From Candidatus Iainarchaeum sp. (GTDB lineage Archaea > Iainarchaeota > Iainarchaeia > Iainarchaeales > DTGL01), in the NCBI GenBank assembly GCA_038736825.1, contig JAVYME010000004.1, positions 1 to 32,000 on the forward strand: a stretch of 32,000 bases of DNA. Reading direction: 5' to 3'. The translations under genes were made by a program, and so were the position numbers. The notes beneath the pieces were generated by a model, which saw nothing but the letters and a program-made list of their open reading frames with translations, was not told the origin of the DNA and did no database searches. Of this stretch, positions 10,629-27,583 are shown in pieces. The first letter of the stretch is position 1, and each line of letters starts with the position of its first letter.

Positions 10629-10850
10629 ATGTGTCTTGCAATGCCTGGCAAAATAGTGGAATTAAGGGATAATGGGAAAATTGCAGTGATAGACTATGGT
10701 TTTGAAAAGCGAGAGGCAAACAACGAATTCTTAAAGGCAAAAAAAGGCGAATGGGTTTTAGTGCAGTTCAGGATGACAGTGCAAAAGGTTTCAGAAAAAG
10801 AAGCTCTTGAAGCACTAAAAGAATGGAAAGAAGTCAGCGGACAGAGTTAA
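10629..10850 (+). CDS. hypC: [NiFe]-hydrogenase maturation chaperone HypC/HupF
   Basis: Starts MCLAMPGKIVEL (invariant Cys2 in the MCL(A/G)xPG motif). 73 aa OB-fold size, with GEWVLVQF near the C-terminus. Confidence 0.9.
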   Translation: MCLAMPGKIVELRDNGKIAVIDYGFEKREANNEFLKAKKGEWVLVQFRMTVQKVSEKEALEALKEWKEVSGQS

Positions 10851-11553: not shown

Positions 11554-12457
11554 CCATAACGCCCCTGAATTTCAAGAAGCGTGAAACAAACGAAAAACCG
11601 GTTATAGAAAAAACCCCTAGTGAAACCAAAAGCAGTCCAAAGCCATCCAGCAAGCCAATCTTGGTTCCAAGAAATACGAAAGAAAGAATTGCAGTGATTG
11701 GTTGCGCTAGCAACAAAATCGAGGAAGCCTTGTGCACTGGCAGAAGCTTTAAGCCGTTATAATAGGTGAAAACATAACCGAAAAGCAAAACAGAGGTTAA
11801 AACAATCCAGCCAATCTGCTCAATTGATAGTGTTCCAGCCAAAAATATTTGCCCGTTAAATGAGAGAAAAGCAAACAAAAACAGTGCTCCAAAAAACATT
11901 CTTCCAAAAGCAACCGTGGAGCCTTCAAGTTCAAATTTTTGCATAACCCTTTTTGCAATTACGTTTTCCAAACCCCACAAAATTGTTGCAGCCAAAACCA
12001 TTATTGCAGAAAAAGAAAAAACCAGCGGAGCTGAAAAAAGGAACAAATTGCCTGCAAGCAGCAAGAATGCGCCGGCAACAAATTTCCAGTCAATTTTTTC
12101 CTTTAAAAAAACTAGTGCAAAAATGGTTGCAAAAACAAAAAGGGTTTTGTGAATGAAACCAGCAAGTGCTGCACCGGTTTGCTGGAGTGCAATAAAAAAC
12201 AATGCAAACGGAATGCTGCCGCCAATTAAACCAATCAATAAAAGGAAGCCAAAAACCCTTTTGTCCAAGATTTTGTGCAAATCCTTGCTTTTGAGCAAAA
12301 CCAAAAGCGAAAAGAGCATTACCGCCACAAGAGAATTCTTTAATGCAGTGAAAAGCACTGGCTCCAAGCCTTTTACTGCAAAGGCATTCAGGAAAATGCT
12401 AAAGCCACTGATTAGGGCAGTAAGCAAAACCAGTGAAATGCCTTTAGAGTTTTCCAT
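11540..12457 (-). CDS. EamA/DMT-superfamily transporter (10 TM)
   Basis: Two EamA-like 5-TM halves with Gly-rich helix ends (LIGLIGGSIPFALFFIALQ, FLLLAGNLFLF). Confidence 0.8.
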   Translation of the reverse strand: MENSKGISLVLLTALISGFSIFLNAFAVKGLEPVLFTALKNSLVAVMLFSLLVLLKSKDLHKILDKRVFGFLLLIGLIGGSIPFALFFIALQQTGAALAGFIHKTLFVFATIFALVFLKEKIDWKFVAGAFLLLAGNLFLFSAPLVFSFSAIMVLAATILWGLENVIAKRVMQKFELEGSTVAFGRMFFGALFLFAFLSFNGQIFLAGTLSIEQIGWIVLTSVLLFGYVFTYYNGLKLLPVHKASSILLLAQPITAILSFVFLGTKIGLLDGFGLLLVSLGVFSITGFSFVSRFLKFRGVMVARK

Positions 12458-12610
12458 ATTCTATGAATGGCGTGAGAAACAAATAAAAAGATTGTCTTGG
12501 CTTGCAGTGAAAAAAAATTTCACGAAGCAAAGTGATGTGTTTTAAACCTTTTGCAGCCTATTTTTTTCTCCTAAATTTGTAAAAAAAAGAATGCATTGGG
12601 GGCAAATTTA

Positions 12611-13123
12611 ATGCTTTTCTTTGTTTGTGCTTTTTTTGCCTTTTTCCTTTACCTAGCCCTAACCGCTGGCTCAGGCAGCATCGGCCTTTGGGCAATAGAA
12701 GAGATCTTGCTTGCTTTAATTTTTTCTCTAGCAGCAGGACTTATTGCTTCAAGGGTTTTTTCAGCTTTGGGCTTTAAGGGCGGAACTGCCTTTCTTAACC
12801 CAAAAAGGTGGGGTTTGTTTTTATTTTATGTTTTTGCAGTATTTTTTCCAGCACTAATAAAAGCAAACCTTGATGTTGCATGGCGTGTTATAACCGGCAA
12901 AATCAATCCAGGCATTGTAAGGATTTCGCCAAAACTTAAAACCGATTTTGGAATGACAATGCTCGCTGACTCCATTACTCTCACGCCTGGCACTTTAAGC
13001 GTTTCCATTGATGACAAGAAAAAAGAACTGTATGTTCACAGCATTTGTCTTTCTGGAAAGGATCCAAAGATTGGGGAAATTTGCGGTTCTTTCCATGAAT
13101 GGGTTCGAAAGGTGGCTGAATGA
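12611..13123 (+). CDS. mbhA: membrane-bound hydrogenase subunit MbhA (MrpE/MnhE-like)
   Basis: MnhE-like pattern (NLDVAWRVITGKINPGIVRI...LADSITLTPGTLSV). First gene of the operon. ATG 12611 is preceded by GGGGG; an alternative TTG lies at 12596. Confidence 0.8.
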   Translation: MLFFVCAFFAFFLYLALTAGSGSIGLWAIEEILLALIFSLAAGLIASRVFSALGFKGGTAFLNPKRWGLFLFYVFAVFFPALIKANLDVAWRVITGKINPGIVRISPKLKTDFGMTMLADSITLTPGTLSVSIDDKKKELYVHSICLSGKDPKIGEICGSFHEWVRKVAE

Positions 13124-13383
13124 TTTTCCTTCCACTGGCAGTCACGGTTTTGGTTTTCTTGATTTTTGTCTGCATTTTAAGGATTTTAAAGGGTCCGACT
13201 GTGCCTGACAGAATGGTTGGAATTGATGCTGCAAGCGGGCTTACAATTAGCGCTCTCATAGTCCTTGGCGCCTTTTACAAGCAGTCTGTTTTTGTGGATG
13301 TTGCAATAGTTTACGCAATTCTTTCGTTTGTTGGAACACTCTTTTTTGCAAGATACCTTGAAGCAAGGGAGGCAAAAAAATGA
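13120..13383 (+). CDS. mbhB: MbhB (MrpF/MnhF-like)
   Basis: 87 aa, 3 TM, with LKGPTVPDRMVGIDA typical of MnhF. ATGA overlap with mbhA. Confidence 0.8.
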   Translation: MIFLPLAVTVLVFLIFVCILRILKGPTVPDRMVGIDAASGLTISALIVLGAFYKQSVFVDVAIVYAILSFVGTLFFARYLEAREAKK

Positions 13384-13718
13384 GCCTTTTATTGTTTTCT
13401 TCTTATGTCTTGATTTTATTCGGGATTTTGTTTCATGCTTTGGGGGCAATCGCTCTTTTCAGGTTTCCTGATGTTTACACTAGAATGCATGGCACTACAA
13501 TGATTACAACGTTTGGCTCAATTTTTGTTGTTTTTGGGGTTTCCCTTTATGGATTCCAGGCTGGCGATTTTGCCCTCATAGTTCATCCCTTGATAGCGCT
13601 TGTTTTCCTCTTGCTTTCAGCGCCAGCGAGCTCGCATGCAATTGCAAGGGCAGCCCACAACAGCGGGGTTTTTCCCAAGCCGGCGATTGTGGACAGACTG
13701 AAGGAGGCAAAAAAGTGA
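13380..13718 (+). CDS. mbhC: MbhC (MrpG/MnhG-like)
   Basis: ALGAIALFRFPDVYTRMHGTT and SAPASSHAIARAA are MnhG signatures. ATGA overlap with the upstream gene. Confidence 0.85.
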   Translation: MSLLLFSSYVLILFGILFHALGAIALFRFPDVYTRMHGTTMITTFGSIFVVFGVSLYGFQAGDFALIVHPLIALVFLLLSAPASSHAIARAAHNSGVFPKPAIVDRLKEAKK

Positions 13719-13960
13719 TTGCTGATATTTTCCATGCACTGGTTTTGCTGGGAGCGCTTTTTTGTGCAATAATGGCTGTCAGGGCAAAAGACCTTTTGAT
13801 TGCTGTTGTCTTGCTTGGAGCAATGAGTCTTTTGGTTGCAACAGAATTTTATATTTTGCAGGCACCGGATGTGGCAATAACTGAAGCTGCAGTTGGAGCC
13901 GGCCTTTCCACTGCAATTTATCTGGTGGCAGTTGAAAAAACCAAGAGGATGGAAGAATGA
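13715..13960 (+). CDS. mbhD: MbhD (DUF4040 / MrpA C-terminal-like)
   Basis: 81 aa, 3 TM, with FYILQAPDVAITEAAVGAGLST typical of DUF4040. GTG start overlaps the mbhC stop (GTGA), with AAGGAGG 8 nt upstream. Confidence 0.75.
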   Translation: MIADIFHALVLLGALFCAIMAVRAKDLLIAVVLLGAMSLLVATEFYILQAPDVAITEAAVGAGLSTAIYLVAVEKTKRMEE

Positions 13961-14223
13961 AGCAATCCGCAAAAGTGGTTGTATTGAGTGTTCTCGCCCT
14001 CTTCCTGTTTTTTACTGCAATCGCAATGAGGTCTTTTGGGGCTCCTAAAAAAACTGCAATGGATGACTATATGATATTGAATGGTCAAAGGGAGACTGCT
14101 GCAAACAATATTGTGGCCGCAATTGTTTTTGATTACAGGGGTTATGATACTCTTGGCGAGGCAACAATTCTTTTCACTGCGGTCAGCGGTGTTTTTTTGC
14201 TGTTCAGGGCGGTGAAAAAATGA
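13957..14223 (+). CDS. mbhE: MbhE (MrpB N-terminal-like)
   Basis: NNIVAAIVFDYRGYDTLGEATILF is the MnhB-type motif. ATGA overlap with the upstream gene. Confidence 0.8.
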   Translation: MKQSAKVVVLSVLALFLFFTAIAMRSFGAPKKTAMDDYMILNGQRETAANNIVAAIVFDYRGYDTLGEATILFTAVSGVFLLFRAVKK

Positions 14224-14699
14224 ACGGTCTTTCCACTATTGTTAGAACGGTTGCTTTAATTTTGTTTGTTCCCGTGCTTGTTTTAGGGTTTTATGTAATA
14301 GCGCATGGGCATCTCACGCCCGGCGGTGGCTTTCAGGGCGGCACAATTATTGCAACATCGCTGGCGCTTGTTTTGGTTGCTTTTGGGGGAGAGCATTTCA
14401 AAAAGGCTGTTTCAAAGGAAACACTGAAAAACCTTGAAAGCATTGGGCTCACGGTTTTCATTGGTGCTGCTTTGTTGGGGCTCGGGGCTACGTTTTTTGC
14501 AAACTTTTTGGCAAACTCTGGGCTTTTGTTTGGGAAAAGCATTGGGTTTGGAGTGAATCCAGGCTATATTAACACTTCTGGCACTATTGCTGTAATGAAT
14601 TTTGCTGTTGGCACTGAAGTTGCTGTTGGTTTATCGCTTGTTTTAATGCTCATGTTTTTTTCCAGTGACAGTGGAATGGAGGGGGGTGAAAAGAAATGA
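14220..14699 (+). CDS. mbhF: MbhF (MrpB/MnhB-like)
   Basis: HGHLTPGGGFQGGTI motif, 4 TM. ATGA overlap with the upstream gene. Confidence 0.8.
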   Translation: MNGLSTIVRTVALILFVPVLVLGFYVIAHGHLTPGGGFQGGTIIATSLALVLVAFGGEHFKKAVSKETLKNLESIGLTVFIGAALLGLGATFFANFLANSGLLFGKSIGFGVNPGYINTSGTIAVMNFAVGTEVAVGLSLVLMLMFFSSDSGMEGGEKK

Positions 14700-15064
14700 T
14701 TTTTGGAAACCTTCCCTTTATTGTTTCTCTTTTAATGATTGTTGTGGGTCTTTCAGCCTTGTTGTTTAAAAAGAATCTCATAAAAATGGCCATAGGGCTT
14801 TCAATAATGGGTTCTGGCATTAATGTTTTCCTTGTTGCCTTGTGTTATCGTGACAACAGCATTGCCCCCATATTCACTAATGCGCCTTTAAGCGATGCTT
14901 CCAAGGCGGCTGCTGAAATGGCTTTGCCTGTCCCGCAAGCCTTAACTCTTACAAGCATTGTGATTAGCCTTGCAGTTACCGCTCTAATGCTTTCTCTCGC
15001 GGTTCTTTCTTACAGGCATTCTGGGACTCTTGATTCAGAGAAATCAAGGAGGCTGAAGGGTTGA
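14696..15064 (+). CDS. mbhG: MbhG (MrpC/MnhC, NuoK-like)
   Basis: 122 aa, 3 TM, with LPVPQALTLTSIVISLAVTA typical of NuoK/MnhC. ATGA overlap with the upstream gene. Confidence 0.8.
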   Translation: MIFGNLPFIVSLLMIVVGLSALLFKKNLIKMAIGLSIMGSGINVFLVALCYRDNSIAPIFTNAPLSDASKAAAEMALPVPQALTLTSIVISLAVTALMLSLAVLSYRHSGTLDSEKSRRLKG

Positions 15065-16632
15065 TGGATTTTATTGCGTTTGTTTTGAATCATGCGCCTG
15101 CGCTTTCAGTGGCTGTGCCATTGTTGAGTGCCTTTCTAATTCCTCTTTTTAAAAAGGAGTGGTTGAAGGCATCCATGGCTTTCACTTTATTATCTTTGCT
15201 TTTCACTGAAATCCTTGTGCTTTCCGTGTTCTTTAGCGTTCTTTCTGGGGGTACAAGGGTTTACACGATGGGTGCTGACATTCCAGGGCGGACTCTGCCT
15301 TCAGGCATGTCTGTGCCTGTAAGGATTATCCTGCAAATAGATGCTCCTTCAGCATTAATGGGCTTGATTGGTGCAACTATTGCGTTGATTGCTGCGTTTT
15401 ATGCCTTGCAGGGCGTGAAGGACAAGGCTGAGGGCAAGTTTTATTGCCTTATGCTTTTAATGCTCTCTGGTTTTATTGGCTTTGTTTTCACTGGGGATTT
15501 CTTTAACTTGTTTGTTTTCTTTGAGATTCTTTCCATTTCTTCTGTTGGCTTGATTGCATTCTGGTTGCACAAGCAAGAGGCAATCGAGGCTGGCTTCAAA
15601 TATCTTTCAATTAGCGCGGTTGCATCTCTTTTTGTTTTGCTGGCAATTGCTTTAATGTATGCACAGCACGGTGTTCTCAACATAGCCGCAATATCTCTTG
15701 AAACTGCAATCTCGGGTTTTGCAATAATTGATGTGATTGCTCTTGGCTTGCTGGTTGCAGGCTTTTTAATGAAGTGCGGCGCGGTTCCAATGCATTACTG
15801 GGTTCCAGATGCTTACGGTGAAGCCCCAGAGGCAATAACTGCAATTCTTGCAGTTGCAACCCAAGCAAGCCTTTATGCACTTTTAAGGGTTTGCTTTACA
15901 ATGTTTGGATCCTTTGAACTGATTGGAATAATTGCTTGGGCAATGATTTTGTTCGGCGTGCTTTCGCTTTTTGTTGGTTCTACAATGTGCTTGCTTCAAA
16001 AAGACTTGAAAAGGCTTATTGCATATGGTGGAATTTCTCAAACCGGTTTTATTCTTGTTGCAATGGGCGCTGGCCTTGCAGCAATAGGCAACCCGGTTTT
16101 TTCAGATTTTGGCTTTAAGGCAATGCAGGGCGGAATCTTTCACATGATAAACCATGCTTTTTATGAAGCTCTTTTGTTCCTTTCAGCAGGCGCAGTAATC
16201 TATGCTGCTGGCACCAAGGATTTGGATGAATTGGGCGGTCTTGCAAGAAAAATGCCTTTCACTGCAATTCTTTTCCTTGTAGGCGCAATTGCAATGGCTG
16301 GCTTGCCTCCATCGAACGGTTTTGCTTCAAAAATCCTGATTTATGAATCAATTTATTATTTCAACCCTTTTTTGGCTGTGATAGCGCTTGTTTCAAGCGT
16401 GATTGTGACTGTTCCGCTTGTTAAGGCTTTTTGCGCAGTTTTTCTCGGACCAGAGGTTAAAACGCTTTCAGGTGCAAGGGAGGCGCCAAAGGCAATGCTG
16501 TTCGCTATGGCGGTTCTTGCATTGATTGTTATATTGCTCGGATTTTTTCCAAGCATTGTAATAGACTTTGTTGCCAAGCCTGCAGCAAAAGCCTTGCTGG
16601 ACTGGGGTTCTTACTGGGGGGCTGTAGTGTGA
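15064..16632 (+). CDS. mbhH: MbhH (MrpD/NuoL-M-N-like antiporter subunit)
   Basis: About 14 TM. KCGAVPMHYWVPDAYGEAP and IAYGGISQTGFIL are signatures of proton-pumping antiporter-like subunits. The ATG overlaps the mbhG stop by 1 nt. Confidence 0.9.
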   Translation: MDFIAFVLNHAPALSVAVPLLSAFLIPLFKKEWLKASMAFTLLSLLFTEILVLSVFFSVLSGGTRVYTMGADIPGRTLPSGMSVPVRIILQIDAPSALMGLIGATIALIAAFYALQGVKDKAEGKFYCLMLLMLSGFIGFVFTGDFFNLFVFFEILSISSVGLIAFWLHKQEAIEAGFKYLSISAVASLFVLLAIALMYAQHGVLNIAAISLETAISGFAIIDVIALGLLVAGFLMKCGAVPMHYWVPDAYGEAPEAITAILAVATQASLYALLRVCFTMFGSFELIGIIAWAMILFGVLSLFVGSTMCLLQKDLKRLIAYGGISQTGFILVAMGAGLAAIGNPVFSDFGFKAMQGGIFHMINHAFYEALLFLSAGAVIYAAGTKDLDELGGLARKMPFTAILFLVGAIAMAGLPPSNGFASKILIYESIYYFNPFLAVIALVSSVIVTVPLVKAFCAVFLGPEVKTLSGAREAPKAMLFAMAVLALIVILLGFFPSIVIDFVAKPAAKALLDWGSYWGAVV

Positions 16633-16985
16633 TGAACCAGGAAATTTTTGGCGGCACAATGCCTGTTGAATGGAGCCCGCTTGTTTTTATAGTGTCAATT
16701 GTTCTTGTCTCACTGGTAGTGGTTGTTGTCAGGTTTTTTGGAAAAAAAGACTTTGTTGACGGAAAGTTTAGGGCTGATGCATTTCTTTCAGGCAACAAAC
16801 CGGAAGAAAAACATGAAGTGAAGGCAAGCAATTTCTTTTGGGGCTTTTTTGAGGCATTAAAGGGATACTATGAAAAAATGCTTGCAATTCACACTGGCTT
16901 GCTCAACGATTACATTTTTTGGTTTGTTTTCTGTGTTTCACTCATATTGATAGCGCTTTACATGGGGGTGGCCTTGTGGGGATAG
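16632..16985 (+). CDS. mbhI: MbhI (small membrane subunit)
   Basis: 118 aa, 2 TM. Position and size match MbhI between the antiporter and hydrogenase modules. The start overlaps the mbhH stop. Confidence 0.65.
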   Translation: MNQEIFGGTMPVEWSPLVFIVSIVLVSLVVVVVRFFGKKDFVDGKFRADAFLSGNKPEEKHEVKASNFFWGFFEALKGYYEKMLAIHTGLLNDYIFWFVFCVSLILIALYMGVALWG

Positions 16986-17404
16986 ATTCCTTGAAAAGGT
17001 CGCTTTGGGTTTTTCATGTCAACAGTGGTTCCTGCAATGGTTGTGATATAGAGATAATTGCAGCTCTCACTCCAAGATATGATGCTGAAAGGTTTGGCAT
17101 AAAGCTTGTGGGAACCCCAAGGCATGCAGATGTATTGCTTGTCACAGGCCCTGTCACCAAGCAAATGAAGGAAGAAGTGTTGCGGGTTTACGCTCAAACC
17201 CCTCAACCGAAAGTGGTAATGGTTGTGGGCAATTGTGGAAGCACTGGCGGTGTTTTCTATGAATCCTACAACATTGACGGTCCAGTGAACAAATTGCTGC
17301 CAGTTGATGTTTATGTAACCGGCTGCCCTCCAAGGCCTGAGGCAATCATAGAGGGTGTTGTAAAGGCTTGGAAAAAACTAGAGTCTTTGGAGGCAAAAAA
17401 ATGA
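16976..17404 (+). CDS. mbhJ: MbhJ, [NiFe]-hydrogenase small subunit (NuoB-like, one 4Fe-4S)
   Basis: SLWVFHVNSGSCNGCDIE, GNCGSTGG and VTGCPPRPE supply the four cluster cysteines. GTG 16976 was chosen (GGGGGT upstream); the TTG at 16919 would add a non-homologous extension inside mbhI. Confidence 0.85.
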   Translation: MGIDSLKRSLWVFHVNSGSCNGCDIEIIAALTPRYDAERFGIKLVGTPRHADVLLVTGPVTKQMKEEVLRVYAQTPQPKVVMVVGNCGSTGGVFYESYNIDGPVNKLLPVDVYVTGCPPRPEAIIEGVVKAWKKLESLEAKK

Positions 17405-17910
17405 ATCCCGAACAGGTTTTGGAATCATTCAAAAAAGAATTTCCTGGAATTGAGATAAGGTTGGTTGAACAAGGCTCTGGCAAGCATAAAAAAGCCCAGG
17501 TTTGGGCTTTAGTCCAGCCAAAGGATTTCAAGAGAGCGGTGAAGCACTTGTTTGAATTGCAGGAATTTCCACATTTTTCTGTTTCTTCTGGAAGCGATAT
17601 TGGAAATGAAATTGAAATAATAAACCATTTTGTGCTCAATTATGGAGAAAAAGAACCACAAATTCCATTCAATCTTAAAGTGAGGCTGCCAAAGGAAAAC
17701 CCTGAAATGGAAACAATAACTGATCTTTTTCCAAGCGCAATCATTTCAGAACAGGAAAAAATGGAAATGCTGGGAATAAAAATTTCCGGAATTCCAAAGA
17801 AAAGGGTTTTCACTGATGACAGCATGCCTTCAGGCGTGTTCCCCTGGAGAAAGGATGGAAAAGGCGCTGAAAAAATAGCAAGGAATGTCCATGAAGGTGG
17901 CAAGAAATGA
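17401..17910 (+). CDS. mbhK: MbhK (NuoC-like subunit)
   Basis: About 170 aa soluble subunit in the expected position. ATGA overlap with the mbhJ stop. Confidence 0.75.
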   Translation: MNPEQVLESFKKEFPGIEIRLVEQGSGKHKKAQVWALVQPKDFKRAVKHLFELQEFPHFSVSSGSDIGNEIEIINHFVLNYGEKEPQIPFNLKVRLPKENPEMETITDLFPSAIISEQEKMEMLGIKISGIPKKRVFTDDSMPSGVFPWRKDGKGAEKIARNVHEGGKK

Positions 17911-19130
17911 ACAAACAGTTTGAATTGTGCGTTGGACCAATACATCCAGCCCTAAAAGAACCAATAAAACTGGATTTTCAAGTTGAAGGCGAGCGCGTTA
18001 AAGGGGTTTCTTTCAGTTTAGGGCAAGTGCACCGTGCAATAGAGTGGGCTGCAACAAAAAGAAACCCGATACAGGTTCTTTACATGGCGGAAAGAATTTG
18101 CGGGATTTGCAATATGTGCCATCCGATGGCTTTCAGCATGGCAATTGAAAGCGCTGCAGGCATTGAAGTGCCAGAGAGAGCTGAATTCATTCGCACAATA
18201 AACGCTGAACTTGAAAGAATCCACTCGCACATTTTGTGGGCTGGAGTTGCAGCGCACGAGCTGGGCTTTGACTCCCTAATGCATTATACTTGGCGCGTCA
18301 GAGAAAAAGTCTTAGACATAATAGAATACTTGAATGGAAACAGAATCACAAAAGGGGTTCTCATGATTGGCGGCGTGAGAAGGGACATTCCAGAAAAAGA
18401 CTTTGCAAAAGTCAGGGAAGCACTAAACTATTACAAGGAATTGTACGCAAAACTTGAAAGCATTCTGTTAAAGGACCGCTCAATAATGGCAAGAACAAGG
18501 GAAATCGGCATTCTCACAAAAAAGGACGCTCTTGAATTGTGCGCTGTGGGCCCAACAGCAAGAGCCTCAGGAGTAAAAAAAGACATTAGAGTGGACTGGC
18601 CTTATGCAGCCTATCCCGAGCTTGAAATTGAACCCATAACCCCTGAAAGCGCTGGATTCAAGGCAACCGGTGACACTTATGACAGGATTGTGGTGAGATT
18701 GCTTGAAATAAAACAATCAATTGAATTGATAGAGCAATGCTTGGACAAAATGAAGCCAGGACCGATTCTTGCAGAACCTGTTCTCCAAAAACTGTTAGTG
18801 CAATTAAAGACAGTTCAAGGCGAGGGCGTTGCATTCCAGGAAGCCCCGAGGGGAGAACTAATACACTACATTAAAATGACAGGACAGGAAGCACCTTATG
18901 CTTGGAAAGTCAGAGCGCCCACTTATGCAAACCTGCCTCCCTTAGTGCCAATGCTTTCTGAATGCGAAATAGCCGACATTCCAATAATTGTGGCATCAAT
19001 AGATCCCTGCATGTCGTGCACAAACCGCGCCATAATAACTGACAAAAACAATTCAATGCTTTCAATGGAAGAACTCAGAGAGTTAAGCATTAAAAAAACC
19101 CTGAAAATGCAAAAGGAGGCATTGAAATGA
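17907..19130 (+). CDS. mbhL: MbhL, [NiFe]-hydrogenase catalytic large subunit (NuoD-like)
   Basis: N-terminal Ni-Fe ligand motif ERICGICNMCH and C-terminal IDPCMSCTNR, so all four cysteines are present. These are followed by a 33-aa C-terminal extension (AIITDKNN...KEALK). Confidence 0.92.
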   Translation: MNKQFELCVGPIHPALKEPIKLDFQVEGERVKGVSFSLGQVHRAIEWAATKRNPIQVLYMAERICGICNMCHPMAFSMAIESAAGIEVPERAEFIRTINAELERIHSHILWAGVAAHELGFDSLMHYTWRVREKVLDIIEYLNGNRITKGVLMIGGVRRDIPEKDFAKVREALNYYKELYAKLESILLKDRSIMARTREIGILTKKDALELCAVGPTARASGVKKDIRVDWPYAAYPELEIEPITPESAGFKATGDTYDRIVVRLLEIKQSIELIEQCLDKMKPGPILAEPVLQKLLVQLKTVQGEGVAFQEAPRGELIHYIKMTGQEAPYAWKVRAPTYANLPPLVPMLSECEIADIPIIVASIDPCMSCTNRAIITDKNNSMLSMEELRELSIKKTLKMQKEALK

Positions 19131-20137
19131 ATGCTTTGCCATTATTGCTCGCACAGTTTTTGCTTATACCAGTGCTTGCCATAACAGGCATTTTTCTAGG
19201 ATTGCTTTTTAGGGGAATTGACAGAAAGCTTGGGGCAAAAATGCAGGCACGCGTTGGCCCGCCAATAATACAGCCCTTTTTGGACTTGAAAAAGCTTTTA
19301 ATAAAGGAAAACATTGTGCCAAAGCACGCCATAAGCTGGATTTTCAATTCAATGCCGGTGATAGCACTTGTTTCAGCGCTTTTGCTTTTACTTTACATTC
19401 CCTTGTTTGGCTTTGCACCACTTCTCAAAGGCTATGGAGACCTAATCCTTGTAATGTACCTGTTAATGGTTCCAGCCCTTGCACTCGCCATAGGCGGTTT
19501 TTCCTCGGGTTCAACCTATGCCTCTGTTGGAGCGCAAAGAGAGCTTGTTTTAATGATGAGTTACGAGTTTGCGCTTGCCATAGTGATTGTCACAATTGCA
19601 TTCATTTCTTCCATTGCCAACCCGCTTTCAAATGCATTTTCTCTTGAAACAGTCTCTGAAACACCAATATGGGAGCTTGTAGGGCCAGTTGGCTCAATTG
19701 GTGTTTTCCTATTGCTTTTAGCCCTAATGCTTGTAATGCCAGTAGAGCTTGGAAGAATCCCTGGAGACATTGCAGAAGCCAAAACCGAAATAGCGGACGG
19801 CGTGCTCGTGGAATACAGCGGCCGCAATCTAGCACTTTTCAACCTGGCACAGGATGTGAGAACAATTGCTTTTGCAGCACTAGTGGTGGCGCTTTTCTTT
19901 CCTTACAATTTTTCACCCAGCATTGCAATTCTTGGTTTTCCAATAGAAGTGATTGCCAATGCTGCCTTTTTCCTTGTAAAGCTTTTCATTGTGGTTTTTG
20001 CTGGCTCAATTTTTGTGCATGTTGCAGTGGCAAGGTTTAAGGTTGACCAAGCAGCAAAAGCCTATTGGGGGCCAGTGCTCACTGTAGCACTTGCTGGAAT
20101 GGCAATTGCAATTTATGGAACAACAATGGTGGTTTGA
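19127..20137 (+). CDS. mbhM: MbhM (NuoH-like membrane subunit)
   Basis: 8 TM with DRKLGAKMQARVGPP and EAKTEIADGVLVEYSG, the NuoH/HycD signatures. ATGA overlap with the upstream gene. Confidence 0.88.
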   Translation: MNALPLLLAQFLLIPVLAITGIFLGLLFRGIDRKLGAKMQARVGPPIIQPFLDLKKLLIKENIVPKHAISWIFNSMPVIALVSALLLLLYIPLFGFAPLLKGYGDLILVMYLLMVPALALAIGGFSSGSTYASVGAQRELVLMMSYEFALAIVIVTIAFISSIANPLSNAFSLETVSETPIWELVGPVGSIGVFLLLLALMLVMPVELGRIPGDIAEAKTEIADGVLVEYSGRNLALFNLAQDVRTIAFAALVVALFFPYNFSPSIAILGFPIEVIANAAFFLVKLFIVVFAGSIFVHVAVARFKVDQAAKAYWGPVLTVALAGMAIAIYGTTMVV

Positions 20138-20138
20138 A

Positions 20139-20633
20139 ATGGGAATGGCATTTGAACTTTTAAAGCAAATGTTCAAAAAAAGCGCTACAAACAAGTTTCC
20201 GGTAAAGTATGCTCCAAAATCCACAACAAAGCTCTTGGAAAAAGTTGAAAAGGGAGAAATGAAAATTAACCCGCCAATAGCAACACCCCCCAATTTTAGG
20301 GGAAGGCTTTCCTATCAAAGAGAAAAATGCATTTTGTGCAGGCAATGCATTAGAGTGTGCCCTGCAGCTGCACTTGAATTCGACCAGCCATCAAATTCAA
20401 TCAAGCATTATGCCGCAAGATGCACTTTTTGCGCTCAATGCGTTGACATCTGTCCCACAAAATGCCTTGCAATGACAGACGAATTCTTGCTTTCAGCTTA
20501 CGATACAAGCTTGGGCTTTGCTTTGCCAAAAAAAGAGCCATTGAAAACAGAACAAACAGAGGAAAAAGAAGAAAAGCCAGAGCAAAAAAAAGCAAAACCA
20601 AAAGCCAAAAAAAATGCAAAAAAGAAAAAATGA
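20139..20633 (+). CDS. mbhN: MbhN (NuoI-like 2x[4Fe-4S] ferredoxin subunit) with a Lys/Glu-rich C-terminal tail
   Basis: CILCRQCIRVCP and CTFCAQCVDICP. ATG 20139 lies 1 nt after the mbhM stop. The last ~45 aa are low complexity (KKEPLKTEQTEEKEEKPEQKKAKPKAKKNAKKKK). Confidence 0.88.
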   Translation: MGMAFELLKQMFKKSATNKFPVKYAPKSTTKLLEKVEKGEMKINPPIATPPNFRGRLSYQREKCILCRQCIRVCPAAALEFDQPSNSIKHYAARCTFCAQCVDICPTKCLAMTDEFLLSAYDTSLGFALPKKEPLKTEQTEEKEEKPEQKKAKPKAKKNAKKKK

Positions 20634-20634
20634 C

Positions 20635-21105
20635 TCACAACAGTTCTATTTCTTTCAGTCTGCCCTCTTTCAACAAGCAAATAAGCCTTCTTGCAGCATC
20701 TGTTGCTTGCGGGCTAAGCTTGTTTAAATGCCAACCATTATTGGGCTGAATTCCGACAATAACAATCTCTTCAACATAAGGCTCTATTTGCGAAACAGTC
20801 TGTGAAACCGGAAGCGAATGCGTTGAATAAAACAAAGAATTCGCTTTAGCCTTGTCTATGCGCCGGATTTCGCCTGGAGAAAGCCCCATTTCCGCAGCAT
20901 CCACTAAAACCAGCAAAGAAGGCCTTTCCCTTTTAATCAAGCCAATAAAGTTTTCAAGAGCAGCTCCAGCATTAACTGAAAGCCAGTCCCGTTCACTGAA
21001 ATTGTCAGCAATCACGCAGCCGACTGCATCATCGCCGTTCAATTCTTGACCCATGCCCACAAGCATGCACATTTTTCTGGTTTCATTATAAGACTCAAAT
21101 TTCAT
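20635..21105 (-). CDS. hycI: hydrogenase maturation endopeptidase (HycI/HybD family)
   Basis: MLVGMGQELNGDDAVG (GxGNxxxGDDxxG-type motif) and downstream VLVDAAEMG. ATGA overlap with hypA. Confidence 0.85.
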   Translation of the reverse strand: MKFESYNETRKMCMLVGMGQELNGDDAVGCVIADNFSERDWLSVNAGAALENFIGLIKRERPSLLVLVDAAEMGLSPGEIRRIDKAKANSLFYSTHSLPVSQTVSQIEPYVEEIVIVGIQPNNGWHLNKLSPQATDAARRLICLLKEGRLKEIELL

Positions 21106-21458
21106 TCAAAAACCACTCTTTTCACTTTTCGCCCTGTTCCACCGGAAAGCATTGCTTTTTCACCGCAAACAGGGCAATCCAAAAAAAGAGCTTCAGAAAA
21201 CTCGGCTTCCTTTCTCCATTCGCTTTCATGGCCGTTCAAGCACTTTATTTTCGGTTTTTCAATTTCAATTTTTATCCTGGCTTTTTCGGCAATAGTGCCC
21301 TCTGAAACCACTTTAAAAGCCTCTGTTAGTTCCTCTGCAGTAACATCCGCTATTTCGCCCAGTTCAATCACAATCTCTTTTATTTTTCCAGCTCTGGCTT
21401 TTTTGGCTTCTGCCAGCGCGTCACCCAAAAGCTTTCTTGCAATCCCAAACTCGTGCAT
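21102..21458 (-). CDS. hypA: hydrogenase nickel-incorporation protein HypA
   Basis: N-terminal MHEFGIA (Ni-binding MHE motif), 118 aa, zinc site KCLNGHE...CPVCGE. The first CxxC appears as C-x3-H. Confidence 0.9.
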   Translation of the reverse strand: MHEFGIARKLLGDALAEAKKARAGKIKEIVIELGEIADVTAEELTEAFKVVSEGTIAEKARIKIEIEKPKIKCLNGHESEWRKEAEFSEALFLDCPVCGEKAMLSGGTGRKVKRVVFE

Positions 21459-21569
21459 TTCAAAATAGTGTTATTGAATGTTTTTTATTCTTTTTCAAGT
21501 CAAAAAAAGCCAACAAAGAAAATTTAAATATTGTTCGGTTCAAATAATTGCATTCGCTGGTGGTTGGGA

Positions 21570-22274
21570 ATGGAAGACCTGCTAATGCCTTTTCGAAGAA
21601 ACAGCAAAGTTAAAGAAGAGGCAAAAGAAGAAATAAAGGACCATGTTGGCACCGACCTTGCAATGGAACACAGGGCAAAGGCAAGGATAAGGGAAGCCGA
21701 CCTAGAATTTGAAAAAGCTTTCGCAGAAGTGATGGGTATTCCCTTCAAGCCAAAAAAACTCCCAGAGGAAGAGGAACCCCCAGCCGCTGAAGAAATGCCA
21801 TGCCCAGAAAAAAAGCAAAGCGACCAAAAACAGTCAGACCTGAAAGCAATAGTTGAAATGGCAAAAAAGGAAAAAGAACCAATAATTCAAGAAAGCCAAA
21901 AAGAAGAAGAAAAAAAAGAAATAGTCCAAAAAGTAATTGCTGAAATGAAGGCAAACGCAGTTGCAAGAGATGGCAGTGAAACCAAAGAAGAATTGGAAGA
22001 AAAGGAGGTTGACCCGGAATTGAAAAAAAAGCAGCAGGCTAAATGGGCGACTTTTAATTTCTGGTATTCTGACAGAAACGCATCCTCCTACGCAGAATTC
22101 AAAGATGCAATAAAAGCCATAGGCAACCAATCACTGGAACACCACGCCCGCAACAACGATTTCTCAAAGTATTTGCGCGAATTCTATGACAAAAAAACAG
22201 CCGACAAAATAGAATACCTGGAAAACTCGTTCAGGGGCGAAGAACTGCGATCAAGAATCCTCAAAACGCTCTAA
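21570..22274 (+). CDS. Lys/Glu-rich hypothetical protein with a conserved-looking C-terminal ~75-aa domain (DUF5752-like?)
   Basis: Long low-complexity K/E/P/Q region, then WATFNFWYSDRNASSYAEFKDAIKAIGNQSLEHHARNNDFSKYLREFY. A TATA-like TTTAAATA at about 21524 favours ATG 21570 over TTG 21531. Confidence 0.5.
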   Translation: MEDLLMPFRRNSKVKEEAKEEIKDHVGTDLAMEHRAKARIREADLEFEKAFAEVMGIPFKPKKLPEEEEPPAAEEMPCPEKKQSDQKQSDLKAIVEMAKKEKEPIIQESQKEEEKKEIVQKVIAEMKANAVARDGSETKEELEEKEVDPELKKKQQAKWATFNFWYSDRNASSYAEFKDAIKAIGNQSLEHHARNNDFSKYLREFYDKKTADKIEYLENSFRGEELRSRILKTL

Positions 22275-22332
22275 AAAGAAAGCCAAAAACAGCGATTGCA
22301 AGTTTTTTATTACTTTTCCCGCAAAATTTTTT

Positions 22333-22824
22333 ATGGCTGAATTTTGCAAAAAAAACAGGGAAAAAAAGATTTTCATTTCATGGAAAAAGTTTGACTCATT
22401 ATGCAGGCAACTCGCAAAACAGGTTGAAAAAGAATTCAAGCCAGAACTGATTGTTGCAATTTCAAGGGGCGGCCTTGTGCCTGCACAAATAATATCGCAT
22501 TGCATAAAGAACAGCGAATTATATGTCATAAAAGCAGACTATTACAAGGATGACACTGCAAAAAAAGACATGAAATGGAACACAGAGCCGCTCATAACCC
22601 AAAAACTCGACAGGCAAGTGGAAGGCAAGAAAATCCTTGTAGTGGACGAAGTGACAGATTCGGGTGCAACAGCACTAATGGTGAAAAAATACATAGATTC
22701 GCTTAAGCCGGGGGAAGCACGCTACCTCACAGTCCATTGGAAGCCATGGAGCAAGTTCAAGCCACACTATTTCGCTGAAGAGGCTGATGGCTGGATAGTG
22801 TATCCTTGGGCAAAAAAAGACTGA
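22333..22824 (+). CDS. purine phosphoribosyltransferase (Hpt/Gpt-like type I PRTase)
   Basis: PRPP-binding motif KILVVDEVTDSGAT. N-terminal ISW..F...C..LA and AISRGGLVPA are typical of xanthine-guanine/hypoxanthine PRTases. Confidence 0.8.
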   Translation: MAEFCKKNREKKIFISWKKFDSLCRQLAKQVEKEFKPELIVAISRGGLVPAQIISHCIKNSELYVIKADYYKDDTAKKDMKWNTEPLITQKLDRQVEGKKILVVDEVTDSGATALMVKKYIDSLKPGEARYLTVHWKPWSKFKPHYFAEEADGWIVYPWAKKD

Positions 22825-22898
22825 ATTGAATTAAACAGCAAATCCAAAAAAAATTGAATTCTGTTGTTTAATGCAATAAAAACATTTTTAGCAGTCTT

Positions 22899-23852: not shown

Positions 23853-23855
23853 TGT

Positions 23856-27582: not shown

Positions 27583-27583
27583 T

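What the first reader, a model, noticed from the sequence alone, without database searches (positions are those of the whole stretch)
12458..21458. Complete 14-gene Mrp-linked membrane-bound [NiFe] hydrogenase (mbhA-N) with hypC and hypA-hycI in a reduced-looking AT-rich archaeal genome
Fourteen consecutive same-strand ORFs match Pyrococcus furiosus mbhA-N in order and size. They comprise an MrpE/F/G, DUF4040, MrpB, MrpC, MrpD antiporter module followed by NuoB/C/D/H/I-like subunits. Nearly every junction is an ATGA/GTGA-type overlap, indicating translational coupling. MbhL keeps all four Ni-Fe cysteines (RICGICNMCH; DPCMSCTNR), so this is a true hydrogenase rather than an Mbx/Mbs sulfane reductase. 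MbhJ and MbhN carry complete Fe-S motifs. MbhL has a 33-aa C-terminal extension, which fits the adjacent HycI-type protease. The genomic context (Lys-rich tails, truncated aaRS, short overlapping genes) looks like a small, possibly DPANN-type genome. In such a genome, an ion-pumping, ferredoxin-dependent H2-evolving respiratory complex would be an unexpected route to autonomous energy conservation.
Basis: partly seen in the sequence, partly recalled or inferred. Interest (0 to 1): 0.7.

Follow-up and report, generated by a model that had tools for sequence, protein, structure and literature searches.

The report
Membrane-bound hydrogenase operon in DPANN archaeon
This is an intact 14-gene, ion-pumping, hydrogen-producing enzyme complex (Mbh) with three of its maturation genes in a small-genome DPANN archaeon (Diapherotrites/Iainarchaeota); the call is correct, but many relatives carry the same operon and the same kind of complex has been described in other DPANN lineages, so it is a solid but fairly ordinary find.

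Summary
Window 12611..20633 (+) holds 14 tightly coupled genes in the exact order of Pyrococcus furiosus mbhA-N. hycI and hypA converge on its 3' end, and hypC lies 1.7 kb upstream, outside the stated coordinates.

- **Identity.** All five subunits searched against solved structures (H, I, J, L, M) hit P. furiosus MBH (PDB 6CFW) best, far above MBS, formate hydrogenlyase and, where they appeared, Mrp or complex I. MbhL keeps all four Ni-Fe cysteines and a 33-residue C-terminal extension. MbhJ and MbhN keep their Fe-S cysteines.
- **Host.** The window is an NCBI MAG contig labelled Candidatus Diapherotrites archaeon, so the DPANN guess was right.
- **Not an artefact.** The locus is collinear at 71-79% nucleotide identity with a separately named and deposited Lake Pavin Iainarchaeum MAG. 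The core gene order recurs in a distant Diapherotrites MAG (MbhL 64% identical). dN/dS is 0.02-0.16 for the 12 genes where dS could be estimated. The neighbouring TrpRS is Diapherotrites-type.
- **Phylogeny.** MbhL sits in a 99%-supported clade whose labelled members are all Diapherotrites. That clade lies inside a broad clade of uncultured archaea that is sister to Thermococcales Mbh.
- **Novelty.** Modest. Group 4/Mbh-like hydrogenases are already published for Aenigmarchaeota, Micrarchaeota, Caliditerrarchaeota and phylum EX4484-52. I found no paper describing Mbh in Iainarchaeota specifically.

Verdict: new member of a known kind; interest about 0.3.

The parts
10629..10850 (+). hypC: HypC/HupF-family chaperone for the Fe(CN)2CO moiety, 73 aa, N-terminal MCLAMPGK with the essential Cys2
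   Evidence: Motif scan. TIGR00074 E 2.4e-11, 43.3 bits, just under the curated cut-off of 48. A HypC gene also lies upstream of the mbh locus in the distant Diapherotrites MAG L015.
12458..12610 (.). Divergent intergenic region between eamA (-) and mbhA (+). It probably holds both promoters. It contains a conserved AAATAAAAAGATT element and a TTTTAAA(C/T)CTTTTGC TATA-like element.
   Evidence: Sequence. The first element is conserved in the window, L002 and L015; the second in the window and L002. Promoter function is inferred only.
12611..13123 (+). mbhA (MrpE-like), 170 aa
   Evidence: PF01899 MNHE, E 8.6e-33. The ATG 12611 start equals NCBI MEM0359996.1.
13120..13383 (+). mbhB (MrpF-like), 87 aa
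   Evidence: PF04066, E 2.4e-18. ATGA overlap with mbhA.
13380..13718 (+). mbhC (MrpG-like), 112 aa
   Evidence: PF03334, E 5.8e-22. ATGA overlap.
13715..13960 (+). mbhD, 81 aa
   Evidence: PF13244 MbhD, E 4.9e-22. GTGA overlap.
13957..14223 (+). mbhE, 88 aa
   Evidence: PF20501 MbhE, E 1e-9. ATGA overlap.
14220..14699 (+). mbhF (MrpB-like), 159 aa
   Evidence: PF04039 MnhB, E 1.3e-23. ATGA overlap.
14696..15064 (+). mbhG (MrpC/NuoK-like), 122 aa
   Evidence: PF00420, E 1e-22. ATGA overlap.
15064..16632 (+). mbhH: the single antiporter-like (MrpD/NuoN-type) proton-path subunit, 522 aa
   Evidence: PF00361, E 2.4e-60. 6cfw_H 353 bits against 6u8y_H 172 bits. 100% identical to a 522-aa NCBI protein. 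E154, K237, H360 and K423 of the charged axis are conserved; the TM8 Lys position is Gln.
16632..16985 (+). mbhI: Mbh-specific small membrane subunit, 117 aa
   Evidence: No Pfam family. The only significant solved-structure hit is 6cfw_I 'MBH subunit', E 9.2e-7.
16976..17404 (+). mbhJ (NuoB-like small subunit, proximal [4Fe-4S]), 142 aa
   Evidence: PF01058, E 9.6e-33. 6cfw_J 205 bits against 6u8y_J 109 bits. Four non-adjacent Cys: SCNGC, GNCGSTGG, GCPP. The start equals NCBI MEM0360005.1.
17401..17910 (+). mbhK (NuoC-like), about 169 aa. The start is uncertain: ATG 17401 gives an ATGA overlap, and the longest ORF starts at TTG 17368.
   Evidence: PF00329, E 9.2e-17. Start candidates listed. 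The 17401 start is not the sequence on record.
17907..19130 (+). mbhL: [NiFe] catalytic large subunit, 407 aa. Cys ligands lie in RICGICNMCH and DPCMSCTNR. The C-terminal 33 residues (375-407) are the presumed HycI-cleaved extension.
   Evidence: PF00346 plus PF00374. 6cfw_L 378 bits, HycE 239, MBS 171. Identical to NCBI MEM0360007.1. Tree placement.
19127..20137 (+). mbhM (NuoH-like membrane anchor), 336 aa
   Evidence: PF00146, E 1.1e-60. 6cfw_M 172 bits against 6u8y_M 117 bits.
20145..20633 (+). mbhN (NuoI-like, 2x[4Fe-4S], ferredoxin-facing), 162 aa, with a K/E-rich C-terminal tail of about 40 residues
   Evidence: Fer4 families. Two CxxCxxCxxxCP motifs. The ATG 20145 start equals NCBI MEM0360009.1.
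20635..21105 (-). hycI: hydrogenase maturation endopeptidase, 156 aa, convergent with mbhN (the two stop codons are 1 nt apart)
   Evidence: PF01750, E 1.6e-13. TIGR00142 hycI, E 1.3e-29, below its curated cut-off; TIGR00072, 71.2 bits, above its cut-off of 47.45. NCBI MEM0360010.1. HycI holds the same position in L015.
21102..21458 (-). hypA: nickel metallochaperone, 118 aa, with an N-terminal MHE motif. It overlaps hycI by 4 nt.
   Evidence: PF01155, E 1.9e-20. TIGR00100, E 5.8e-20. NCBI MEM0360011.1. Orthologue in L002.

Best explanation
The locus encodes a functional Mbh-type (Mrp-linked, group 4 [NiFe]) membrane-bound hydrogenase of an Iainarchaeota (Diapherotrites, DPANN) archaeon.

**Mechanism, by homology with P. 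furiosus MBH (PDB 6CFW).**
1. Reduced ferredoxin donates electrons to MbhN (two [4Fe-4S] clusters).
2. Electrons pass to the proximal [4Fe-4S] cluster of MbhJ and then to the [NiFe] site of MbhL, where protons are reduced to H2.
3. The small free energy released is transmitted through the MbhM/MbhI interface to the membrane arm.
4. MbhH moves protons, and the Mrp-like MbhA-G module exchanges them for Na+. The resulting ion gradient could feed an ATP synthase.

**Maturation.** MbhL is matured by HypC (Fe(CN)2CO delivery) and HypA (Ni insertion). HycI then removes the 33-residue C-terminal extension after Arg374.

**Shown here.**
- Gene content and order, cofactor ligands and closest structural relatives.
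- Lineage assignment and conserved synteny.
- Purifying selection.

**Inferred, not shown.**
- The electron donor, the direction of catalysis and the ion specificity.
- Coupling to an ATP synthase.
- Presence of hypB/D/E/F elsewhere in the genome.
For: - **Architecture.** The Pfam order is identical to mbhA-N. Translational coupling and Shine-Dalgarno motifs occur at every junction.
- **Closest solved structures.** For all five subunits searched, the best hit is 6CFW: L 378, H 353, J 205, M 172 and I 32.5 bits. MBS scores 171, 172, 109 and 117 bits for L, H, J and M; no MBS chain was found for I. The 6CFW score also exceeds FHL and complex I for L, H, J and M, and Mrp for H.
- **Cofactor ligands.** All [NiFe] and Fe-S cysteine ligands are present. 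MbhH keeps the conserved charged residues E154, K237, H360 and K423.
- **Maturation genes.** HycI, HypA and HypC are present.
- **Host.** The contig's proteins are labelled Candidatus Diapherotrites archaeon. Most labelled relatives of the adjacent TrpRS are Diapherotrites or Iainarchaeum.
- **Conserved locus.** Window 8942..28273 is collinear with a Lake Pavin Iainarchaeum MAG at 71-79% nucleotide identity. The order hypC...DUF6390-EamA-mbhA-N-hycI recurs in GCA_026413945.1 at 64% MbhL identity.
- **Selection.** dN/dS is 0.02-0.16 for the 12 genes where dS was estimable.
- **Phylogeny.** MbhL sits in a 99%-bootstrap clade whose labelled members are all Diapherotrites. That clade lies within an archaeal clade sister to P. 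furiosus MbhL at 96% support.
Against: - No biochemical or expression data exist for this enzyme.
- Only 32 kb of the genome is visible. Ferredoxin, ferredoxin-reducing oxidoreductases, hypB/D/E/F and the ATP synthase are unverified; the window holds no ferredoxin-like Fe-S motif outside MbhN.
- MbhL is only about 47% identical to P. furiosus MbhL.
- The TM8 lysine of the antiporter-like subunit is Gln here and in 88 of 118 aligned sequences (116 homologues plus the P. furiosus MbhH and MbsH references). Ion-coupling details may therefore differ from the structural model.
- The HydDB subgroup (4d or a neighbouring subgroup) could not be computed.
- The tree is neighbour-joining on database hits with only a few reference sequences.
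Confidence: 0.85

Rival explanations
1. Same complex, opposite physiological direction. It would take up H2 and use the Na+/H+ gradient to reduce ferredoxin for anabolism, as Eha/Ehb and Ech do in methanogens, rather than serve as an energy-conserving H2 evolver.
For: Established knowledge: group 4 enzymes are reversible in principle. The sequence evidence does not determine direction. Relatives come from lake-sediment and other environmental MAGs, habitats where I would expect H2 to be available (my inference).
Against: The closest characterised enzyme, P. furiosus MBH, is an H2 evolver (PMC8165549). The related Thermoprofundales MBH large subunit produced H2 in vitro (PMC9585477). DPANN, including Iainarchaeota, are generally described as fermenters that need a sink for reduced ferredoxin (PMC6349945, PMC11216029). 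No carbon-fixation genes are in the window.
Confidence: 0.08
2. It belongs to a formate- or CO-coupled Mrp-linked hydrogenase (group 4a-c type; FHL, Mfh or Mch) rather than a ferredoxin-coupled Mbh.
For: E. coli HycE is the second-best solved-structure hit for MbhL at 239 bits. The subgroup was not formally assigned.
Against: - No formate dehydrogenase or CODH gene lies in the 32-kb window or in the syntenic loci L002 and L015.
- The gene order is that of mbhA-N, with a single antiporter-like subunit.
- MbhL lacks the N-terminal NuoC-like fusion of HycE; the match begins at HycE residue 194.
- HycE is the outgroup in the tree, and P. furiosus MbhL is the sister at 96% support.
Confidence: 0.03
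3. The operon does not belong to a DPANN genome. The contig would be mis-binned or chimeric and really derive from Thermoplasmata or another lineage where Mbh is common.
For: MbhL homologues at about 60% identity are abundant in Thermoplasmata-labelled MAGs. The organism label rests on the submitter's binning. Read coverage could not be checked.
Against: - GC content is even across the window.
- The operon sits mid-contig between housekeeping genes.
- The TrpRS 5 kb downstream has mostly Diapherotrites, Iainarchaeum or AR10 among its labelled relatives.
- At least six contig lengths (67668, 100201, 137415, 28262, 48711, 187089) recur between the Mbh hit lists and the TrpRS hit list. This suggests, though it does not prove, that the same contigs carry both.
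- Synteny including the flanks holds in two other MAGs with separate names and accessions.
Confidence: 0.03
4. It is an Mbx/Mbs-type sulfane-sulfur reductase, or another complex-I-like oxidoreductase that no longer makes H2.
For: It shares modular architecture with MBS; homologous subunits give significant hits to 6U8Y.
Against: - All four [NiFe] cysteines are retained.
- The hydrogenase-specific maturation genes hycI, hypA and hypC are nearby.
- There is one antiporter-like subunit, not two.
- MBS scores about half of MBH or less for L, H and J, and about two-thirds for M.
Confidence: 0.01

Closest known systems
Pyrococcus furiosus membrane-bound hydrogenase MBH (mbhA-N; PDB 6CFW)
   Same: - The same 14 subunits in the same gene order.
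- It is the best solved-structure hit for all five subunits searched, including the Mbh-specific MbhI.
- The [NiFe] and Fe-S ligands are identical in type.
- There is one antiporter-like subunit.
- MbhL has a C-terminal extension; the mature 6CFW chain ends at ...DPCLSCTDR.
   Different: - MbhL is only about 47% identical.
- The TM8 Lys of MbhH is Gln.
- MbhN carries a K/E-rich tail of about 40 residues.
- The host is a DPANN archaeon known only from metagenomes, with about 41% GC, not a hyperthermophilic euryarchaeon.
- hycI and hypA are adjacent here.
Second of two tandem mbh clusters in Palaeococcus pacificus DY20341 (CP006019.1, locus L014)
   Same: The same 14-gene order. It is slightly closer than canonical Mbh: MbhL is 50% identical and MbhH 49% identical at 497 bits. 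It also lacks the TM8 Lys.
   Different: It has no adjacent hycI or hypA in the 21-kb locus.
Group 4d MBH of Thermoprofundales (Thermoplasmatota), PMC9585477
   Same: A 14-subunit MBH in uncultured sedimentary archaea. Thermoplasmata-labelled MbhL sequences are 59-62% identical and fall in the sister part of the same 100%-supported clade. [quoted passage not shown]
   Different: A different phylum. The Iainarchaeota sequences form their own 99%-supported clade.
Group 4/MBH-Mrp-like hydrogenases reported in other DPANN: non-thermal Aenigmarchaeota (PMC8407114), EX4484-52 'Ca. Lutivulcanarchaeum fermentans' (PMC13503563), Caliditerrarchaeota (bioRxiv 10.1101/2025.08.05.668663), and group 4e in Micrarchaeota (cited in PMC8561730)
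   Same: The same idea: a membrane-bound, ferredoxin-reoxidising, ion-translocating [NiFe] hydrogenase in a small DPANN genome. PMC13503563 proposes that it feeds an A/V-type ATP synthase. Aenigmarchaeota-labelled MbhL sequences form the nearest sister clade at 75% support.
   Different: These are other DPANN phyla. None of the papers I could search describes the operon in Iainarchaeota/Diapherotrites, for which the papers I read report group 3b [NiFe] and [FeFe] hydrogenases (PMC8561730, PMC11216029).
MBS (PDB 6U8Y), E. coli formate hydrogenlyase (7Z0S), Mrp antiporter (7QRU/6Z16), respiratory complex I
   Same: Homologous modules: the Mrp-like membrane arm and the NuoB/C/D/H/I-like peripheral module.
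   Different: They score much lower. MBS has lost the [NiFe] site and has two antiporter-like subunits (PMC8165549). FHL has a HycE fusion and a formate dehydrogenase partner. Mrp has no redox module.

Membership tests
Mbh-type Mrp-linked membrane-bound [NiFe] hydrogenase (HydDB group 4d) | Fourteen-gene cluster in the order MrpE/F/G-like A-C, D, E, MrpB-like F, MrpC-like G, MrpD-like H, I, then NuoB/C/D/H/I-like J-N | tested here: met
   Pfam assignments in order. Consecutive coupled ORFs. The same order occurs in both P. pacificus clusters.
Mbh-type Mrp-linked membrane-bound [NiFe] hydrogenase (HydDB group 4d) | Four cysteine ligands of the [NiFe] centre in the large subunit (N-terminal CxxC and C-terminal DPCxxC) | tested here: met
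   RICGICNMCH and DPCMSCTNR align with the 6cfw_L motifs.
Mbh-type Mrp-linked membrane-bound [NiFe] hydrogenase (HydDB group 4d) | Hydrogenase-type proximal [4Fe-4S] in MbhJ (four non-adjacent Cys, not the CC pair of complex I) and two [4Fe-4S] clusters in MbhN | tested here: met
   SCNGC / GNCGSTGG / GCPP aligned to 6cfw_J. Two CxxCxxCxxxCP motifs in MbhN. The criterion comes from PMC8165549.
Mbh-type Mrp-linked membrane-bound [NiFe] hydrogenase (HydDB group 4d) | A single antiporter-like subunit (MbhH) plus the Mbh-specific subunit MbhI | tested here: met
   Only one Proton_antipo_M protein in the cluster. The MbhI candidate's only significant hit is 6cfw_I, E 9.2e-7.
Mbh-type Mrp-linked membrane-bound [NiFe] hydrogenase (HydDB group 4d) | Large subunit groups phylogenetically with Mbh rather than Mbs/Mbx, FHL, Ech or complex I | tested here: met
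   Solved-structure scores are 378 bits (MBH), 239 (HycE), 184 (Nqo4) and 171 (MBS). In the NJ tree P. furiosus MbhL is sister at 96% support and HycE is the outgroup. No Ech, Eha or Coo reference sequences were available, so exclusion of those subgroups rests on subunit composition.
Mbh-type Mrp-linked membrane-bound [NiFe] hydrogenase (HydDB group 4d) | Formal HydDB subgroup assignment | not testable with these tools
Mbh-type Mrp-linked membrane-bound [NiFe] hydrogenase (HydDB group 4d) | Ferredoxin-dependent H2 evolution coupled to Na+/H+ translocation | not testable with these tools
   Requires biochemistry. Inferred from P. furiosus MBH (PMC8165549).
Mbh-type Mrp-linked membrane-bound [NiFe] hydrogenase (HydDB group 4d) | Full charged axis in the antiporter-like subunit (TM5 Glu, TM7 Lys, TM8 Lys, His, TM12 Lys) | tested here: inconclusive
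   E154, K237, H360 and K423 are conserved. The TM8 Lys position is T266-Q267. The same substitution appears in 88 of 118 aligned sequences (116 homologues plus two P. furiosus references) and in P. pacificus copy 2, so it is a clade trait of unknown consequence.
HycI-dependent C-terminal processing of the large subunit | C-terminal extension after DPCxxCxxR plus a HycI-family endopeptidase | tested here: met
   A 33-residue extension. The mature 6cfw_L chain ends at the equivalent Arg. HycI matches PF01750 and TIGR00072 above their cut-offs. The cleavage itself was not tested.
Complete Hyp maturation set (HypA-F) | Presence of hypA, B, C, D, E and F in the genome | tested here: inconclusive
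   hypA and hypC are in the window. hypB, D, E and F are not in the 32-kb window.
Iainarchaeota / Diapherotrites (DPANN) origin of the contig | Housekeeping genes on the same contig affiliate with the lineage, and the locus is conserved in other members | tested here: met
   NCBI labels. TrpRS relatives. Synteny with two Iainarchaeum MAGs and one distant Diapherotrites MAG. A concatenated marker phylogeny was not possible.

The most novel reading that the evidence does not exclude
Mbh is an old, vertically inherited core trait of a whole Iainarchaeota subclade, and possibly of a wider DPANN group shared with Aenigmarchaeota. It would not be a recent acquisition.

Its locus (hypC...DUF6390-EamA-mbhA-N-hycI) would then have been stable across deep divergence.

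Its MbhH carries a clade-wide TM8 Lys-to-Gln change, shared with Thermoplasmata relatives and a second Palaeococcus paralogue. That change would mark a distinct Mbh lineage of uncultured archaea with altered ion coupling.

If so, these DPANN archaea would be chemiosmotic H2 producers rather than pure substrate-level fermenters. That would support a free-living or syntrophic lifestyle.
Probability: 0.35. Interest if true: 0.45.

Novelty: new member of a known kind. Interest (0 to 1): 0.3.

Why it matters
DPANN archaea are usually described as fermenters without ion-pumping electron-transfer complexes (PMC6349945). An intact, selected Mbh that is conserved in synteny argues that a subclade of Iainarchaeota can turn reduced ferredoxin into an ion gradient plus H2.

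That fits the view that this lineage is less host-dependent than other DPANN (PMC10936187, PMC12892359). It also makes these archaea candidate H2 sources in anoxic sediments.

The effect is incremental. The enzyme family, its structure and its occurrence in other DPANN phyla are already known, and the proteins are already deposited and annotated in NCBI.

Tried and rejected
- **Exact contig look-up for MbhL.** It returned nothing, so the rest of the 45-kb contig and the MAG could not be read.
- **Genome-contig scan.** It did not contain the window itself, only 89%-identical relatives. A genome-wide inventory of hypB/D/E/F, ferredoxin, POR and ATP synthase was therefore impossible.
- **The 2018 Cell paper on the MBH structure.** It is not held. 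I took the residue criteria from the 2021 JBC review instead.
- **Apparent loss of the TM8 lysine in MbhH.** I considered it as a sign of a defective pump. I rejected that because the same substitution is the majority state among homologues and the gene is under purifying selection.
- **SurR-like GTTn3AAC site and a GTGAAA-N5-TTTCAC palindrome upstream of mbhA.** Neither is conserved in L002 or L015, so I make no claim.
- **'Lys-rich tails' as a proteome trait.** I considered this reading. For the operon genes the better explanation is embedded Shine-Dalgarno motifs and A-rich spacers.
- **ARAGORN.** It found no tRNA; Rfam found one with an insertion.
- **Literature searches.** Searches pairing Diapherotrites or Iainarchaeota with Mbh, membrane-bound hydrogenase or group 4 found no paper describing this operon in the lineage. 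The one paper that looked relevant (PMC12946211) was not.

Full report
**1. What is in the sequence**

The + strand between 12596/12611 and 20633 carries 14 consecutive ORFs. Their Pfam families, in order, are:

| Gene | Pfam family |
|---|---|
| A | MNHE |
| B | MrpF_PhaF |
| C | PhaG_MnhG_YufB |
| D | MbhD |
| E | MbhE |
| F | MnhB |
| G | Oxidored_q2 |
| H | Proton_antipo_M |
| I | none |
| J | Oxidored_q6 |
| K | Complex1_30kDa |
| L | Complex1_49kDa + NiFeSe_Hases |
| M | NADHdh |
| N | 2x[4Fe-4S] ferredoxin-type domains |

Junctions:
- Nine of 13 are ATGA/GTGA 4-nt overlaps.
- Two are TGATG 1-nt overlaps.
- One is a 10-nt overlap.
- One is a 7-nt gap.
- GGAGG/GGTGG motifs lie 6-9 nt upstream of almost every start.

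NCBI's own annotation confirms the starts I chose for mbhA (12611), mbhH (15064), mbhJ (16976) and mbhN (20145). The mbhK start remains uncertain.

On the minus strand, hycI (20635..21105) and hypA (21102..21458) converge on mbhN, and the hycI and mbhN stop codons are 1 nt apart. hypC (73 aa, MCLAMPGK...) lies at 10629..10850 (+). That is outside the finding's interval, separated from mbhA by the minus-strand DUF6390 and EamA genes.

**2. Which enzyme it is**

I searched five subunits against the sequences of solved structures. Each hit P. furiosus MBH (6CFW) best:

| Subunit | MBH (6CFW) | MBS (6U8Y) | Other |
|---|---|---|---|
| MbhL | 378 bits | 171 | HycE 239; Nqo4 184 |
| MbhH | 353 | 172 | MrpA 182 |
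| MbhM | 172 | 117 | HycD 85 |
| MbhJ | 205 | 109 | HycG 150 |
| MbhI | 32.5 (E 9e-7) | none | only significant hit is the Mbh-specific chain 6cfw_I |

Cofactor ligands:
- MbhL has both Ni-Fe cysteine pairs (RICGICNMCH; DPCMSCTNR). Thirty-three residues follow the Arg at which the mature 6CFW chain ends.
- MbhJ has four non-adjacent cysteines. This is the hydrogenase type rather than the complex I type, by the criterion in PMC8165549.
- MbhN has two CxxCxxCxxxCP motifs.

In MbhH, the charged-axis residues E154, K237, H360 and K423 are conserved. The TM8 lysine of P. furiosus MbhH and MbsH is Thr-Gln here. The same Gln occurs in 88 of 118 aligned sequences (116 homologues plus the two P. furiosus references). 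It is replaced by Tyr in a second Palaeococcus paralogue. It is therefore a clade-wide trait, not a lesion.

There is only one antiporter-like subunit, and the window has no fdh or codh gene. Mbs/Mbx, FHL-type and CO-type enzymes are therefore rejected. Ech is excluded by subunit composition only, because I had no Ech reference sequence for the tree.

**3. Whose genome it is**

- MbhL is 100% identical to NCBI MEM0360007.1, 'MAG... [Candidatus Diapherotrites archaeon]', on a 45,236-bp contig. Flanking proteins carry the same label and consecutive accession numbers.
- The only close loci among GTDB species representatives are two 'Candidatus Iainarchaeum archaeon' MAGs with MbhL at 89% identity. 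The next hits are bacterial at 40-42%.
- For the TrpRS 5 kb downstream, most labelled relatives are Diapherotrites, Iainarchaeum or AR10. A few are labelled Woesearchaeota, Nanoarchaeota or simply 'archaeon'.
- Six contig lengths recur between the Mbh and TrpRS hit lists. This suggests that the same contigs carry both genes.

**4. Not a chimera, not decaying**

- Window 8942..28273 is collinear at 71-79% nucleotide identity with the Lake Pavin sediment MAG contig JAPLVS010000077.1. The shared block includes the GT39 glycosyltransferase, DUF6390, EamA, mbhA-N, hycI, hypA, EndA, TrpRS and GDH.
- A much more distant Diapherotrites MAG (GCA_026413945.1, 187-kb contig; MbhL 64% identical) has hypC...PPase-DUF6390-EamA-mbhA-N-hycI in the same order.
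- dN/dS between the window and the Lake Pavin orthologues is 0.02-0.16 for 12 of the 14 genes. dS was saturated for mbhC and mbhG.
- GC content is even across the window.

**5. Phylogenetic position**

I built a neighbour-joining tree of 57 MbhL sequences with 100 bootstraps.
- The window lies in a 99%-supported clade of 21 sequences whose labelled members are all Diapherotrites.
- Its sister clade (75% support) contains the Aenigmarchaeota-labelled sequences.
- Together they join Thermoplasmata-, Altiarchaeales- and Methanomicrobia-labelled sequences at 100% support.
- P. furiosus MbhL is sister to all of these at 96% support.
- The Bacteroidales-type bacterial homologues fall just outside the Mbh clade, the Caenispirillum homologue lies further out, and E. 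coli HycE was the outgroup.

Palaeococcus pacificus has two tandem 14-gene mbh clusters. The window's MbhL is 47% identical to the canonical copy and to P. furiosus MbhL, and 50% identical to the second copy.

**6. How it most likely works**

By homology with MBH (PMC8165549):
1. Reduced ferredoxin passes electrons to the MbhN clusters.
2. They move to the MbhJ cluster and then to the [NiFe] site in MbhL, where 2H+ become H2.
3. The energy is transmitted through the loops at the MbhM/MbhI interface to the membrane arm.
4. MbhH moves protons, and the Mrp-like MbhA-G module exchanges them for Na+.

HypC and HypA load the metals, and HycI removes the 33-residue extension.

The donor, the direction, the ion specificity and the link to an ATP synthase are inferred.

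**7. Comparison with the literature**

- Reviews state that most DPANN lack ion-translocating electron-transfer complexes, with Altiarchaeota as an exception (PMC6349945).
- Group 4 membrane-bound hydrogenases are nevertheless reported for non-thermal Aenigmarchaeota (PMC8407114).
- Group 4e is reported for a Micrarchaeota genome (cited in PMC8561730).
- Putative group 4 enzymes are reported for Caliditerrarchaeota (bioRxiv 10.1101/2025.08.05.668663).
- An 'MBH/Mrp-like hydrogenase module' feeding an A/V-type ATP synthase is explicitly described as key to the energy metabolism of a DPANN archaeon of phylum EX4484-52 (PMC13503563).
- Fourteen-subunit group 4d MBH is widespread in Thermoprofundales, with activity shown in vitro (PMC9585477).
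- For Iainarchaeota/Diapherotrites, the papers I could search report group 3b [NiFe] and [FeFe] hydrogenases (PMC8561730, PMC11216029). No held paper pairs 'Iainarchae*' with 'membrane-bound hydrogenase'.
- I recall, but could not verify here, that DPANN reviews by Castelle and colleagues mention membrane-bound [NiFe] hydrogenases in some DPANN.

**8. Verdict**

The observation and the core interpretation are right. The enzyme is a new member of a well-known kind, in a lineage where the databases show it to be common even though the literature has not highlighted it. The surprise is modest.

The most interesting residue has two parts. One is the evidence for long-term vertical retention of the whole locus in a DPANN clade. 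The other is the clade-wide TM8 substitution in MbhH. Interest is 0.3.

Noticed in passing
window 99..1736 (+), with 1..124 (-): The ValRS-like gene lacks its N-terminal catalytic third. It matches ValRS profile positions 250-789 of 801, and NCBI annotates it as a 545-aa 'class I tRNA ligase family protein' starting at TTG 99 (MEM0359979.1). The 130 nt upstream are not ValRS-like in any frame. They may instead start a minus-strand ORF, MLRVGLNNNSNDILNGENGETKK.... This could be a split ValRS or a pseudogene; the N-terminal half was not located.
   Followed up: partly
window 30360..30488 (-): Rfam finds a tRNA (54.3 bits, model positions 1-71) spread over 129 nt, which implies an insertion or intron of about 58 nt. 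ARAGORN missed it. A tRNA-splicing endonuclease gene (EndA) lies at 25264..25833 (-).
   Followed up: no
window 15064..16632 (MbhH residues 266-267): The TM8 lysine of antiporter-like subunits (K in P. furiosus MbhH, MbsH K250 and MrpA) is Thr-Gln here. It is Gln in 88 of 118 aligned sequences and Thr-Tyr in the Palaeococcus copy-2 proteins. This may mark a distinct Mbh subfamily with modified proton-path chemistry.
   Followed up: partly
L014 (Palaeococcus pacificus CP006019.1, 205787-227340): Two complete 14-gene mbh clusters sit in tandem. The second, less canonical copy is the closer Thermococcales relative of the DPANN/Thermoplasmata Mbh clade.
   Followed up: partly
window 21102..21458 (-), HypA residues about 73-100: The first Zn-site CxxC of HypA is replaced by C-L-N-G-H (Cys-x3-His), while the second CPVC pair is kept. 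The same variant is conserved in the L002 orthologue. The N-terminal MHE nickel motif is intact.
   Followed up: partly
window 20520..20633 (MbhN C-terminus): MbhN ends in a K/E-rich low-complexity tail of about 40 residues (...EEKEEKPEQKKAKPKAKKNAKKKK). The L002 orthologue has the same length (165 aa) and aligns end to end. The tail is absent from the 141-aa MbhN of L015 and the 152-aa Palaeococcus copy.
   Followed up: partly
window 12458..12610; L002 4635..4790; L015 7482..7565: The element AAATAAAAAGATT is conserved in the eamA/mbhA divergent intergenic region of all three MAGs. A TTTTAAA(C/T)CTTTTGC element is shared by the window and L002. They are likely TATA/BRE-type promoter elements. 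A GTGAAA-N5-TTTCAC palindrome and a GTTn3AAC site in the window are not conserved.
   Followed up: partly
window 20633/20635: The convergent genes mbhN and hycI end 1 nt apart, which leaves no intergenic space for terminators. hypA and hycI overlap by 4 nt.
   Followed up: no
window 4769..6458 (-), 7340..10566 (-), 27584..28693 (-), 31043..31576 (-): The neighbourhood includes a class 1B-type dihydroorotate dehydrogenase pair (PyrD plus a PyrK-like Fe-S/NAD subunit), two tandem GT39/PMT-family glycosyltransferases, a Glu/Leu/Phe/Val dehydrogenase and an inorganic pyrophosphatase. The genome therefore keeps some de novo biosynthesis and amino-acid catabolism, and is less 'reduced' than typical DPANN symbionts.
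   Followed up: no
window 21531..22274 (+), 22899..23852 (-), 26923..27564 (+), 29215..30228 (-): Several sizeable ORFs have no Pfam or NCBIfam family. One is a 247-aa K/E-rich protein with only a sub-threshold DUF5752 hit next to hypA. Another is a 317-aa ORF that is conserved in L002 by blastn.
   Followed up: no
one search hit P0276 (archaeon GW2011_AR10, 1.24-Mb contig): The complete AR10 Diapherotrites genome has a TrpRS 65% identical to the window's, yet it does not appear among the 120 best MbhL or MbhH hits listed. Mbh therefore seems to be present in only part of the phylum.
   Followed up: no
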